DNA from: Octopus vulgaris
Lineage: Eukaryota
Reading direction: 5' to 3'
DNA length: 64,000 bases
Assembly (NCBI GenBank): GCA_951406725.2
Contig: OX597814.1
Span: 57,288,001 to 57,352,000 of the forward strand
Every line of letters starts with the position of its first letter. The stretch's first letter is position 1. Under the pieces are notes generated by a model. It saw only the letters and a program-made list of their open reading frames with translations. It had not been told where the DNA came from and made no database searches. Shown here piece by piece: positions 40,595 through 46,343 of this stretch. The position numbers and the translations under genes were made by a program.

Positions 40595-42013
40595 GGACCA
40601 TCAAAAAAGTGCTATAAAAATAACCGTTAAAAAAAGGAAATTACTGTGTGGTTGACCATTATTAAAACAAAAGAGCTATTAGAATGACCGCTAAGTAAGG
40701 GGAAGGAGTAAAGGTAAGGGAGTAAAACTGTCCATAGCAATCGCGTAAGCGCGCATGTCCATACATACACATGCGCGCCCGCACACCCACGTACATGTGC
40801 CTATATATATATATATATACATGCTCACCCACACATTCGCAAAAAACATATATATATATATACATACCCGTATACACGCTCGCACACACACACACACACG
40901 CGAACAAAAGCGGTTCATATGCGCGTCTATATACGCACATGCACAAGAAAAAACAGGGTTAAAAGCAAAATACAGAAAATTGTGAAAAAAAGTGCAAAAA
41001 ATAAGCAATAAGAATAAAAAGTAAAGGAGTAAATATGTTTATGGCGAACGCGTATGTGCGCATGTCTATACATATACATGCGCGCACGCACACCCACATA
41101 CATGTGCCTATATATATATATATATATATACTCATCCACCCTCACTTGAAACACACACATGCTCACCCACACATTCGCCAAAAGCAAGATGGAAAAAATA
41201 GTACTCGAATACCGGAGGTAGAGTAATATGCTTTATTAATAAAGCTGCAAAGACATCACATAAACTACTACTCAGTTTTGCGTTCCCGTTCGGCGGACAG
41301 TTTTGGTTTAGAATATATGTATATATATATATATTTGTGTGTGTGTGTGTGTGTGTGTGTGTGTGAAAAAAATGAGTAGGGATGGCTTTTGGTGGGGATA
41401 TTTTATATTTTAATGATAACGTTTACACTTACTCTAATGAGTTTCGAGCTTTCGAAAGCCGTTTTCGAACTAAAATTCAGATTTTTCTTTCAAGTATACA
41501 AATAAAGAATTAAAATAGAAAATAAAAGATAGAAAAAAATGAGAAATAAAGAATATAAAAGCTAATATAAAATATAAAATTATGAAAAAAGAAGAAAAGA
41601 AAAAGAAAGGAAAGAAAGGAAAAAGTAGTAGGTAAGAAGACATACTCTATTCTTACTCTTTACTCTTTTACTTGTTTCAGTCATTTGACTGTGGCCATGC
41701 TGGAGCACCGCCTATAGTCGAGCAAATCGACCCCAGGACTTATTCTTTGTAAGTCTAGTACTTATTCTATCGGTCTCTTTTGCCGGACCGCTAAGTTACG
41801 GGAACGTAAACACACCAGCATCGATTGTCAAGCGATGTTGGGGGAACAAACACAGACACACAAACACACACACACACACACACACACACACACACACACA
41901 TATATATATATATATATATATATATATATATATACATATATGTACATATATATATATATATATATATATATATATATATATATAGGAAAAAAGCAACAAG
42001 AATGGATTAAAAT

Positions 42014-42099
42014 CTCGGTACGATCGTTTCGTACGAGGACATCTTTAATAAGCTACAAAAAATGCAGTGAATACAGATGGCTCGTACTCGTCAGCCGAA
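42014..42099 (-). ncRNA. intact type I hammerhead ribozyme (left arm)
   Basis: Reverse complement of 45756-45841. Confidence 0.88.
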
Positions 42100-42864
42100 A
42101 AAATATCGGAGAATTCCCAAACATCAAAAGGGGTAGATACAAAAGAGGTTGTAAGATTAACTGCATTGAAGAAAGTTCGATTCATGGAGATCCGATGAAA
42201 GGTTTTAAACCTATAGAATTTATGCATGTCTACATATAGCTCATATTGAATATTTGATCAAGTTGTATGAAGAAATTTTCGGATACAGTCATGCAAAATT
42301 TCTGAAAATCCGAGTAAGAGGCAAAGTGACTGCCACCTCATGTATAGGAAAGTCTGAGTAAAAACATAGTGACTGTCATATCGTGTAGAGGAACAGATTG
42401 TTATTGAAATTTACAAGAATCGCAGATAAGTTCGATTTTTTTGGAGATCCGATGAAAAAGTCTTGAACTTACAAAATTTGTGTATGTCCTTATAGTTCGT
42501 AATCCAGTTTTGTGGAGAGATTTAGGGTACAATCATGCGAAAATATCAGGGAGTCCGAATGAGAAGCAAAATGACAGTCTTATATTGTAGTGGTTCAGGT
42601 TGTTAATGAAATTTTCAAAGAATCACAGAAAGAGGAGGAAGGGGTAGGAATTTAATCAGTTACTGCTATTTAAGCTGTCAAAGAGAAAGGAAAGGGGAAG
42701 CTAAGGGGATGGGCACAATTTGATACTAACAAAAAAGTCTAAGTTTGTTTGGAACAAATTCGAACTGAGGTCAACAATTTATTTCTTTATTTATAAATGT
42801 TACTATTAATAGATTGTCAGGTTACAAAGAGGTCATTAGAAAGGAAAGAAAAATGGGGTTGTTT

Positions 42865-44474
42865 AGCCCTGATAAGGCAACCGTAAATAAAATTAAAATT
42901 AAGAAACACACTATTAGTAACATAGACAACAACAATGACCATACCAGAAAGGATAGTAGAAATAGATTTACAACAGCAAAGTACCCTAATGATATTAAGA
43001 ATATTAATAAAAACATAACAGAGAATACTTATAATAAGGGTAAAATAAACTTGGATAAAACTAGCAAACATGCTAACATGAACATTAATAAATACAAAGA
43101 ATCTGATGATGGGACGATTAATTCTAATAACCCTAACTCTAGTGGGAAAAATTCTAGCAGCCCTAACTCTAATTCTAAGAAATTTAATAAGAAAGACATA
43201 ATATGGCTAAACATCCCTTTTAACTGTGCGGTTTCATCAAATATTCAGGGTAGATTCAAAACAATTCTAGAAAATAATTTCCCATCCTCTCATAGATATC
43301 ATAAAATTATTTCTAAAAAAAGTCAGAATTTCTTATTCAACTCTCCCAAATATGTCCACTTTAATAGCTAAGATCAATAATAATAACATAAAACTAGCCA
43401 GAAATAATTTAATAAATAAAAATAAAAATAGAACGGAAAATTGTAATAACAGTACGAAAAGTAATAATTGCAACAATAATAATAATAATAACAATAATGA
43501 ATGTCATAAAATAAATATAACCAAAAGCCATGGAATTGTTAATAACAATAATAACATAAATAGGAATGATTATGTTAGTAATAGGAATAATACCATGAAT
43601 GTAAGTACATTGAATGAGAGTAACAACATTATCAGCAACAACACTACGCATCTGGATAACAATATCGACAACAATACTAATAGCATCAACAATATCAGCA
43701 ATGATAGTAGGGTTATAGAACCAAACGATAGTGTAGGAATACCGACAAATGATAATACTACTTTAGAAGATAACATCAACTGCAATAATGATAACATTAT
43801 TTTAGATAGCAGCACCAATAATAATAATAATAATAATGAAAGCAGGGCTTTAGAACCAAATGAAAATGTAGGAATACCTATAAATGATAATACTGTTTTA
43901 GATAATAATATTAACTACAATAATGATAGAGTTTTTTTAGATAATAACAATAATCAAAATCATGATAAATTTACCCGCTCTGCTTCGAGCAACAGTAATA
44001 TAAGACTTCTATCCTCAAGGTATTCCACCTCTAATTATAATGCCCCTAGATGTAACTGCAGAATTAAATCAAAATGCCCGGCCCCTGATTTATGCGGGTT
44101 AATTAACATAATCTATAAGTGCTCCGTAACCACAGATAATAAGTTCTCTTATGTTGGATGCACTGTAAATTTTAAACAGAGATTGAATAACCATCTCTCA
44201 TCTTTTAAATTACGTCATAAGGCTGATAGCACTACTCTTTCTAGTAAAATTTGGGAACTAAAAAACAATAATATCAAATATAACCTTAATTGGGAATTAG
44301 TCAGAAGAGCAAAACCCTATAAAAATAGCAGAGTAGGCTGCCAACTTTGCTCCATGGAAGCATTTGAAATACTAATGTATAAAAATAATGGAGAAATTCA
44401 ATTAAACAGCAGAATTGAACTTGGAAATATCTTGTATACATGCTCGGTTTAAGACTCTTAAATATTTTAAATGA
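42865..44474 (+). pseudogene. PLE ORF remnant: RT thumb, Asn-rich linker, CxCx5C motif, GIY-YIG endonuclease
   Basis: KKDIIWLNIPFN..RFKTILENNFP..YHKII, then a frameshift in the A-run at ~43315 to KVRISYSTLPNM. Continues CNCRIKSKC, IIYKCSV..FSYVGCT..FKQRLNNH..SF, TTLSSKIWELK, CQLCSME, LNSRIE, then a frameshift to SCIHARFK. Confidence 0.85.
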
Positions 44475-45755
44475 TATTTTTAATCATATTTCAATTGATA
44501 ACTGTATACTGAAATCATTTTACATAAAATTCATTTTGACTTACATATCACTCCTACATAGTATATTATATATTTAACTGGAAAGATAAGTTCTAACTAG
44601 CTATGATTATAATTTTTTCTCTCTCTGATGGTACTATTAAATACTTATTGACTTAAATTATTTGATTTATTTCTATTGGACCATATTATTATTAATAAAT
44701 TAAATCTTGCTCTATTTTTATCTCCATTTCTTAGTCTATTTTTATCCCTTTACAAATATTAGTTAGTTAATTCTCTTAATTTCTTTTAAATTTTTAAAAA
44801 TTAATTCTGCTAATACCAGACCTATCGTAGTGTATTGTGATGTGATATAATATATCAAAATAATATAATATAATATAGTGTAGTATTTTATAGTTTAGTA
44901 TAATAATAATATAATTGTTTAATTTTAAAAACATTATGTATGTATTATAGTTTAGTATAATAATAATATAATAGTTTAATTTCATTTAAAAACAACCCCA
45001 TTTTTCTTTCCTTTCTAATGACCTCTTTGTAACCTGACAATCTATTAATAGTAACATTTATAAATAAAGAAATAAATTGTTGACCTCAGTTCGAATTTGT
45101 TCCAAACAAACTTAGACTTTTTTGTTAGTATCAAATTGTGCCCATCCCCTTAGCTTCCCCTTTCCTTTCTCTTTGACAGCTTAAATAGCAGTAACTGATT
45201 AAATTCCTACCCCTTCCTCCTCTTTCTGTGATTCTTTGAAAATTTCATTAACAACCTGAACCACTACAATATAAGACTGTCATTTTTGCTTCTCATTCGG
45301 ACTCCCTGATATTTTCGCATGATTGTACCCTAAATCTCTCCACAAAACTGGATTACGAACTATAAGGACATACACAAATTTTGTAAGTTCAAGACTTTTT
45401 CATCGGATCTCCAAAAAAATCGAACTTATCTGCGATTCTTGTAAATTTCAATAACAATCTGTTCCTCTACACGATATGACAGTCACTATGTTTTTACTCA
45501 GACTTTCCTATACATGAGGTGGCAGTCACTTTGCCTCTTACTCGGATTTTCAGAAATTTTGCATGACTGTATCCGAAAATTTCTTCATACAACTTGATCA
45601 AATATTCAATATGAGCTATATGTAGACATGCATAAATTCTATAGGTTTAAAACCTTTCATCGGATCTCCATGAATCGAACTTTCTTCAATGCAGTTAATC
45701 TTACAACCTCTTTTGTATCTACCCCTTTTGATGTTTGGGAATTCTCCGATATTTT

Positions 45756-45841
45756 TTCGGCTGACGAGTACGAGCCATCTGTATTCACTGCATTTTTTGT
45801 AGCTTATTAAAGATGTCCTCGTACGAAACGATCGTACCGAG
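45756..45841 (+). ncRNA. intact type I hammerhead ribozyme (right arm)
   Basis: TTCGG-CTGACGA-GTACGAG...CTCGTAC-GAAA-CGATCG-TA^CCGAG. Full consensus core, 7-bp stem II with G10.1-C11.1, palindromic stem III. Predicted cleavage after A45836 (GUA). Confidence 0.9.
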
Positions 45842-46343
45842 ATTTTAATCCATTCTTGTTGCTTTTTTCCTATTTATAATCACCCCATTTGTCGTATGGT
45901 TAACACCATATAGATATCCGGTGCATCCTAGTTAAGGACCATATTCATGTGAATTCTTTAGAATTCACTAGAATCTCAATTACTTAACCGTATATATATA
46001 TATATATATATATATATATATATATATACATATATACGACGGGCTTCTTTCAGTTTCCGTCTACCAAATCCACTCACAAACTTTGGTCAGCCCGAGGCTA
46101 TAGTAGAAGACACTTCTCCAAGGTGCCACGTTGTGGGACTGAACTCGAAACCATGTGGTTCGTAAGCAAGCTACTTACCACACTCCTACATGTGTATATA
46201 TGTACACATGCACACCCATATATACGTGTATCTGTATGTATTATCACCCCTGTATACGCAGATATACATACATACATACATACATACATACATACATACA
46301 TACATACATACATACATACATACATACAGATATGTGTTGTTTG

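What the first reader, a model, noticed from the sequence alone, without database searches (positions are those of the whole stretch)
41982..45873. Intronic ~880-bp near-perfect hairpin that may mask a sense-strand ribozyme in the host pre-mRNA
Seen: the near-identical inverted arms lie in intron 1. In the minus-strand pre-mRNA the intact HHR (42099-42014) is in sense, and its complement is transcribed ~3.7 kb earlier. HHR motifs at 50897 and 40534 are also in sense. Known: long dsRNA is an ADAR/Dicer substrate, and coleoids edit RNA extensively. Inference: the inverted arm could neutralise self-cleavage, and A-to-I editing could unmask or destroy the core, giving a possible TE-derived control of this gene.
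Basis: inference. Interest (0 to 1): 0.75.

Follow-up and report, generated by a model that had tools for sequence, protein, structure and literature searches.

The report
Inverted Penelope insertion in octopus intron
The 889-base mirror repeat is a recent, broken insertion of a Penelope-type jumping gene in an octopus intron, a layout shared by about a third of the family's copies examined, and its self-cutting RNA motif is predicted to need a partner copy, so control of the host gene is unlikely.

Summary
The arms (41977/82-42864, 44990-45878; 889 columns, 1 mismatch, 1 indel) and the hammerhead (HHR) are real. They lie in the first coding intron of a spliced EF-hand gene on the minus strand. 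The whole is one 5'-truncated Hydra-clade Penelope-like element (41982-45990) in a (TA)n tract, with a broken GIY-YIG remnant. The inversion is the family's habit: 26 of the first 74 sites listed are head-to-head pairs. Any such pair puts one sense HHR downstream of its complement on either strand. The HHR has a 2-bp stem III with a palindromic loop (dimer type). The monomer is predicted to misfold (active fold about 5e-4), and no matching partner lies in the intron. Pairing with the upstream arm is predicted (-171 kcal/mol), but simulated editing never frees the HHR and removes core adenosines. No raw reads were available, so editing and cleavage are untested. Side result: 33 of 34 inverted insertions carry the 112-nt tail on exactly one arm, with uncorrelated arm lengths, which favours two priming events per insertion. 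The scan has noted the same kind of footprint before, in this genome and others.

The parts
41982..45990 (+). Whole insertion: 5'-truncated Hydra-clade Penelope-like element with an inverted 5' arm
   Evidence: Boundaries from related copies; (TA)n on both sides
41982..42864 (-). Inverted copy of the element's 3' end (3' UTR/pLTR), without tail
42014..42099 (-). Type I hammerhead in host-sense orientation: stem I 6 bp, core CUGACGA, stem II 7 bp with a 43-nt insert, stem III 2 bp with palindromic GAUC loop; predicted cut 42019|42018
42864..42865 (.). Head-to-head inversion junction, 1-nt overlap
   Evidence: loose ends of DNA contigs show the native element continuing differently on each side
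42865..44452 (+). ORF remnant: Asn-rich region and GIY-YIG endonuclease; no RT; frameshifts near 43321 and 44429 relative to copy L037
   Evidence: (PF01541 E 2.7e-4, below the curated cut-off)
44051..44077 (+). CxCx5C linker motif before the endonuclease (Hydra-clade feature)
   Evidence: Sequence; definition in PMC8557442 section 11
44990..45878 (+). Right arm: the element's own 3' UTR/pLTR end
45756..45841 (+). The element's own hammerhead (element sense; antisense in the host pre-mRNA)
45879..45990 (+). 112-nt tail, on this arm only; in longer copies the same sequence lies 54 nt before the ORF's ATG
41900..41985 (.). (TA)n target, left side
45991..46036 (.). (TA)n target, right side
51767..51892 (-). 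Host gene, first coding exon (EF-hand)
   Evidence: single copy in G000
38953..39038 (-). Host gene, second coding exon
37080..37368 (-). Host gene, third exon; the window lacks one base near 37356 that three RNA-like runs carry
50897..50931 (-). Minimal hammerhead-like motif with non-canonical core (C at position 4), from a different, very abundant repeat
40530..40595 (-). Degenerate hammerhead-like motif, stem II broken, different stem III

Best explanation
This is a recent, 5'-truncated insertion of a Hydra-clade Penelope-like retroelement into a (TA)n tract of an intron; its inverted arm is likely a by-product of insertion, and its hammerhead is predicted to be idle in the host pre-mRNA. 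Mechanism, step by step. (1, shown) The family inserts in TA repeats and often leaves two truncated 3' ends joined head to head. (2, inferred) The element's protein nicks both target strands and primes two cDNAs on element RNA, one at the pLTR end and one at the tail end. The two 5'-truncated cDNAs are then joined, often through 1-11 nt of overlap. (3, shown) This gives one HHR on each strand, each downstream of its complement. (4, predicted) In the host pre-mRNA the arms pair, the duplex is probably edited like other young inverted repeats, and the intron is spliced out. (5, predicted) The HHR needs a second same-sense copy to build stem III and has none here, so paired or not it cuts little, and editing can only damage it.
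For: Family: 954 candidates, 40 scored, best matches 95-100% identical; 356 exact copies of the HHR 3' half, control 0. Among the first 100 listed matches, 26 minus/plus pairs within 4 kb and no pair in any other geometry; 3 of 18 'single' sites fetched were also inverted. Tail on exactly one arm in 33 of 34 inverted insertions (p 2e-9 against 0.5; L079 and L080 may be one event). The tail-less arm reaches further 5' in 13 of 33 and the tailed arm in 13 of 33; lengths uncorrelated (rho 0.15, p 0.40). Hydra motifs in P0001 and longer copies. HHR: monomer minimum-energy fold pairs the core with stem III (-27.2 kcal/mol; active fold -22.8; share about 5e-4), while two copies fold into the active dimer unprompted (-60.4). 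Single minimal PLE HHRs gave no cleavage (PMC4209133). A lizard PLE cleaves and extends both strands, starts at two sites that bound the tail, and its HHR did not cleave without protein (PMC11167929). Editing simulation: the duplex stayed ahead by at least 56 kcal/mol in 800 of 800 trials; all five core adenosines survived in 33 of 200 trials at 30% editing.
Against: No cleavage assay and no raw reads: idleness is predicted from secondary-structure energies that ignore tertiary contacts, Mg2+ and proteins. The core is intact here and in 70 of 75 full-length copies. PMC11167929 shows a PLE HHR becoming active with the element's protein, and two G000 copies hold uninterrupted 1,071-1,072 aa ORFs, so assisted cleavage in trans is possible. 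This copy has the widest HHR spacing of the 26 pairs (3,803 nt), so it is a larger dsRNA than most. An intronic ribozyme can tune its host mRNA (CPEB3, PMC10274809 abstract). Rfam did not recognise the HHR. Pfam and PDB searches did not recognise the RT; it was read from motifs by eye. Four of the 34 junctions have unresolved gaps of 127-1,836 nt.
Confidence: 0.85

Rival explanations
1. One reading: the host-sense HHR can cut the pre-mRNA, the upstream arm blocks it, and A-to-I editing toggles it, regulating the EF-hand gene.
For: Gene spliced and abundant; intact core; strong predicted duplex; precedent for an intronic ribozyme affecting its mRNA and for antisense blocking (PMC10274809 abstract).
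Against: Dimer-type HHR without a partner; monomer misfolds; geometry obligatory for inverted copies; simulated editing never unmasks (inosine modelled as G, which overstates I-U pairing); insertion very young; expression of the insertion-bearing allele not shown.
Confidence: 0.04
2. Passive harm, not control: the long intronic hairpin disturbs splicing or silences this allele, and the allele is decaying.
For: The window's haplotype also lacks one base in exon 3 that three RNA-like runs carry, which would stop the protein at about 82 instead of about 139 residues (lengths by arithmetic).
Against: The missing base may be an assembly error. The arms lie about 2.9 kb from exon 2 and 5.8 kb from exon 1 and enclose no exon. 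No data link the two features.
Confidence: 0.07
3. The inverted arm arises by fold-back: one cDNA switches template onto itself (self-priming was proposed in PMC3846280), rather than by two primings.
For: Arms within an insertion are usually 98-100% alike; 22 of 34 junctions overlap by 1-11 nt. At this locus the tail-less arm is contained in the tailed arm, as fold-back requires.
Against: In 13 of 33 asymmetric insertions the tail-less arm reaches further 5' than the tailed arm, so neither arm can be a copy of the other.
Confidence: 0.2
4. The arm is a long-read fold-back or assembly artefact.
For: Near-perfect identity; no listed contig of three DNA-like runs bridges 42864|42865.
Against: The arms end at two different, family-typical points (45878 and 45990), each in TA repeats, and the same asymmetry recurs at 33 of 34 sites. 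Contigs break at such junctions in high-copy repeats, and 54 pieces were not shown.
Confidence: 0.03

Closest known systems
Hydra-clade C-terminal EN+ Penelope-like elements (Craig et al. 2021, PMC8557442; includes Hydra-1_Obim from Octopus bimaculoides)
   Same: DKT motif, RW(R/K), CxCx5C linker, no CCHH, CxxC and CxH around the conserved E and N, (TA)n target, 3' hammerhead; RT motifs match the paper's alignment rows by eye.
   Different: ORF of 1,071-1,072 aa with 17% Asn against 709 aa and a 2,507-bp element for Hydra-1_Obim; long 3' UTR; HHR with a 43-nt loop 2; a clear pLTR and tail, where the paper lists 'no pLTR' for Hydra-1_Obim. No tree was built.
EN+ PLE insertions with inverted pLTR and one-sided tail (Pen2a_Av, PMC3846280; Fig. 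2 of PMC8557442)
   Same: Head-to-head inverted 5'-truncated copy; tail at one end; Asn-rich ORF inserts as in Adineta.
   Different: Tail is 112 nt rather than 30-40; the arm here is 889 nt; no target-site duplication can be read in the TA tract.
Minimal and dimer-type type I hammerheads of metazoan PLEs (Cervera and De la Pena 2014, PMC4209133)
   Same: Short palindromic stem III, 7-bp stem II, G10.1-C11.1 pair; opposite-strand pairs already noted there.
   Different: No extra nucleotide after A9; long insert in loop 2; activity of this sequence untested.
CPEB3 intronic ribozyme (PMC10274809)
   Same: Self-cleaving motif in sense in an intron; antisense pairing blocks it.
   Different: CPEB3 has measured activity and effect; it is HDV-like and conserved in mammals (recalled). 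This HHR is young, dimer-type and transposon-borne.

Membership tests
EN+ Penelope-like elements | Single ORF with RT and C-terminal GIY-YIG endonuclease | tested here: met
   Family copies L118, L119: 1,071-1,072 aa ORFs; GIY-YIG Pfam hit below cut-off; RT by motifs only. This copy keeps only the broken EN part.
EN+ Penelope-like elements | pLTR, direct or inverted, with optional tail | tested here: met
   Direct upstream pLTR plus tail before the ATG in L093, L094, L096; inverted arms at 34 sites
EN+ Penelope-like elements | Hammerhead in the pLTR | tested here: met
   (core pattern in 70 of 75 full-length copies)
EN+ Penelope-like elements | RT groups with PLE and telomerase RTs in a phylogeny | not tested
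   No reference set could be loaded; PDB search found nothing
Hydra clade | DKT in place of DKG | tested here: met
   PADKTGN in L093, L094, L096, L100
Hydra clade | RWK motif | tested here: inconclusive
   RWR in the young copies, RWK in the older copy L105
Hydra clade | CxCx5C linker; no CCHH in the EN; CxxC and CxH around E and N | tested here: met
   P0001 against PMC8557442 section 11
Hydra clade | Insertion into (TA)n | tested here: met
   TA-rich flanks printed for the inverted and single copies
Hydra clade | Generally shorter than 3 kb | tested here: not met
   ORF alone exceeds 3.2 kb through Asn-rich inserts; a tendency in the paper, not a strict criterion
Active monomeric hammerhead | Conserved core CUGANGA / GAAA / NUH with three stems | tested here: met
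Active monomeric hammerhead | Stable stem III in a single copy | tested here: not met
   2 bp plus palindromic loop; active fold 4.4 kcal/mol above the minimum; dimer restores it
Active monomeric hammerhead | Measured self-cleavage | not testable with these tools
   Needs an assay or raw 5'-end reads
Regulatory intronic ribozyme (CPEB3-like) | Conservation across individuals or species | tested here: inconclusive
   Junction not bridged in the listed contigs of four runs, which proves nothing; arm identity indicates youth
Regulatory intronic ribozyme (CPEB3-like) | Effect on host mRNA | not testable with these tools
   No genotyped RNA data

The most novel reading that the evidence does not exclude
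These hammerheads do cut host pre-mRNA when helped by the element's protein or a host chaperone, so single-arm copies in sense are purged from introns while inverted copies, which silence their own ribozyme, are tolerated: the inversion would be a self-neutralising licence to live in genes, with ADAR destroying the core afterwards.
Probability: 0.07. Interest if true: 0.65.

Novelty: new member of a known kind. Interest (0 to 1): 0.22.

Why it matters
As a gene switch it probably does not matter. As a record of transposition it has modest value: a young family with intact ORFs, hundreds of near-identical ends and an almost strict one-tail-per-insertion rule makes the open question of how Penelope-like elements build inverted ends testable in genome data, and fits the two start sites and double-strand activity reported in vitro. 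If the novel case held, it would give PLE hammerheads a host-side cost and explain why inverted copies persist in introns.

Tried and rejected
Rfam scan: no hammerhead, only microsatellite hits to miRNA models. Pfam and PDB searches for the RT: none. Protein searches for relatives of the host protein returned only P0002 itself, so its conservation is unknown. Run search: no holder on record as RNA and no raw-read run listed, so editing, siRNA and 5' ends could not be examined. Junction 42864|42865: not bridged in the listed pieces of X1, X2, X7; nothing laid from X11; 54 pieces not shown; no conclusion on polymorphism. The exon 1-exon 2 joint was not read from RNA; it rests on splice signals, frame and P0002. 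An in-script count of the host ORF length (45 aa) used coordinates off by one and was discarded. Sense bias of the three motifs: rejected, because one is forced by the inversion and two of two has probability 0.25. Heterodimer with the 50897 or 40534 motif: rejected by inspection, their stem III strands differ in length and sequence. None of three long copies fetched holds two intact same-sense HHRs. Paper searches listed no natural case of a hammerhead masked by an inverted repeat and toggled by editing; only listings were seen, and the library lacks most subscription papers. Place look-up in earlier findings: nothing near.
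Full report
Observation. The two arms are real: 41977-42864 and 44990-45878 align over 889 columns with one mismatch, in the TA edge, and one 1-nt indel. Each arm holds the same type I hammerhead, on minus at 42094-42019 and on plus at 45761-45836. A relaxed scan finds three motifs in the window and none in 20 shuffles. Rfam does not recognise it, probably because of the 43-nt insert in loop 2 and the 2-bp stem III (inference).

Host gene. A single-copy EF-hand exon at 51892-51767 and an exon at 39038-38953 are joined in database protein P0002, labelled Octopus vulgaris. 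The element lies between them. Contigs of three RNA-like runs from three studies cover exons 2 and 3 at depths of about 1,000-30,000 against about 0-40 in intron 2 outside a SINE, and join exon 2 to exon 3. The runs are only guessed to be RNA, and the DNA control covered 16 of 30 bins. All three carry one base in exon 3 that the window lacks, so they may not represent this haplotype: the gene is expressed, but expression of the insertion-bearing allele is not shown.

What the element is. The spacer encodes an Asn-rich stretch and a GIY-YIG endonuclease on plus, with two frameshifts and no RT. The arm has 954 candidate relatives in G000; the 40 scored are 95-100% identical. Copies end either at 45878 or at 45990, then run into TA repeats, so the true right end is 45990 and 45879-45990 is a tail. 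Longer copies carry RT and EN in one ORF (875 aa in L037; 1,071 and 1,072 aa in L118 and L119), with a direct pLTR and tail 54 nt before the ATG. DKT, RW(R/K), CxCx5C, absence of CCHH, CxxC and CxH, and the TA target match the Hydra clade as defined in PMC8557442 (section 11; passages; supplement passages; motifs). The assignment rests on motifs compared by eye; no tree was built.

The inversion is a family habit. The HHR 3' half has 356 exact copies, control 0. Of the first 100 listed, 52 form 26 minus/plus pairs 43-3,803 nt apart, ours the widest, and no pair has another geometry: 26 of 74 sites. I examined all 26, five more, and 18 of the 48 singles, three of which were also inverted. Of these 34 inverted insertions, 33 have the tail on exactly one arm and one on both (p 2e-9 against 0.5; two may be one duplicated event). 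Twenty-two junctions overlap by 1-11 nt, eight have gaps of 0-31 nt and four have unresolved gaps. The tail-less arm reaches more than 20 nt further 5' in 13 of 33 and the tailed arm in 13 of 33, with no length correlation. Of 15 true singles, 6 have the tail. Inverted pLTRs with a one-sided tail are described (PMC8557442 Fig. 2 legend; PMC3846280 passages). Non-nested arms cannot be copies of one another, so I infer two primings on element RNA, one per target strand. This fits PMC11167929 (parts 1-2 of 4), where a PLE protein cut and extended both strands from two start sites bounding the tail. I put this step at about 0.65.

The ribozyme. Stem III is 2 bp closed by a palindrome, and the eight-base strand is self-complementary. 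The monomer's best fold pairs the core with stem III (-27.2 kcal/mol); the active fold is -22.8, about 5e-4 of the ensemble; two copies fold into the active dimer (-60.4). PMC4209133 (parts 1-2 of 4) found no cleavage by a single minimal PLE hammerhead and low cleavage by dimers, and already noted opposite-strand pairs. In PMC11167929 the HHR cleaved only with protein, and no RNA-seq reads ended at the site. A preprint found cleavage in 1 of 9 Xenopus retrozyme dimers and depletion of retrozymes in introns (10.64898/2026.07.22.740005, passages); the second point leaves some room for a host cost. In the host pre-mRNA there is one sense copy. The 50897 motif has C at core position 4 and belongs to a repeat with 8,379 exact copies. 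The 40534 motif has a broken stem II. Neither has a matching stem III strand. That position 4 and the five core adenosines are needed for activity is recalled knowledge.

Masking and editing. The HHR segment pairs with its complement at -171 kcal/mol and the whole arm at -1,591, so masking is predicted if the arms meet. But it follows from geometry: in any head-to-head pair, either strand carries one sense HHR downstream of its complement. Editing is likely on general grounds (PMC9989829 section 10; passages). With 10-80% of adenosines read as G on both strands, the duplex stayed ahead by at least 56 kcal/mol in all 800 trials, while all five core adenosines survived in 117, 33, 5 and 0 of 200. 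Modelling inosine as G overstates pairing somewhat, but the margin is large. Editing would therefore destroy, not unmask.

What was not tested. No raw reads were on offer, so editing, siRNA and cleavage ends are open. The unique junction was not bridged in listed contigs of four runs, which is uninformative. The CPEB3 precedent (PMC10274809, abstract only) shows that an intronic ribozyme can matter, but there activity was measured.

Verdict. An ordinary young Penelope-like insertion, a new member of the Hydra clade with a known inverted-end layout. Gene control by a masked ribozyme is unlikely (about 0.04); the population-level version of the idea remains open at about 0.07. Earlier notes of this scan reached the same reading for similar footprints; they are unchecked and are not counted as evidence. 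Interest 0.22.

Noticed in passing
window 37356-37357: The window lacks one base of host exon 3 that contigs of three RNA-like runs carry; in the window the frame stops early (about 82 against about 139 aa by arithmetic). Null allele on the insertion haplotype, or assembly error.
   Followed up: partly
window 26862-26921 (also 10568-10627, 18707-18766): The last 20 residues of database protein P0002 map to a repeat in the triplicated region, not to the exon that RNA contigs splice to: the annotation probably has the wrong last exon.
   Followed up: partly
window about 2000-28400: Three near-identical units about 8.14 kb apart, each with gag-like ORF pieces (11289, 19427, 27583, read by eye). 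Real tandem triplication or assembly effect not checked.
   Followed up: no
window 50897-50931; G000 genome-wide: A minimal hammerhead-like repeat with 8,379 exact copies; 75 of the first 100 listed have C, and 25 have the canonical U, at core position 4 (counted by eye). The canonical form could arise from CpG decay.
   Followed up: partly
L118, L119: Uninterrupted 1,071-1,072 aa ORFs with 17% Asn: the family was active recently and carries Asn-rich inserts like those described in Adineta.
   Followed up: partly
window 33543-35100 and 35719-36186: Fragments of other Penelope-like elements (RT-like and GIY-YIG-like, by eye; no relevant Pfam hit).
   Followed up: no
window about 47800-50653: Broken LINE-type element on plus inside the same intron (RVT_1 E 1.2e-28).
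   Followed up: no
L079 and L080 (G000:C1 67.416 and 67.464 Mb): The same tiny inverted insertion occurs twice as mirror images 48 kb apart, suggesting a larger inverted duplication.
   Followed up: no
L047:4974-9514: Tandem array with a period of about 84 bases, open in several frames.
   Followed up: no
window about 40260-40480: Short imperfect inverted repeat in the same intron, just upstream of the 40534 motif (sequence; hairpin hit); possibly another small inverted element end.
   Followed up: no
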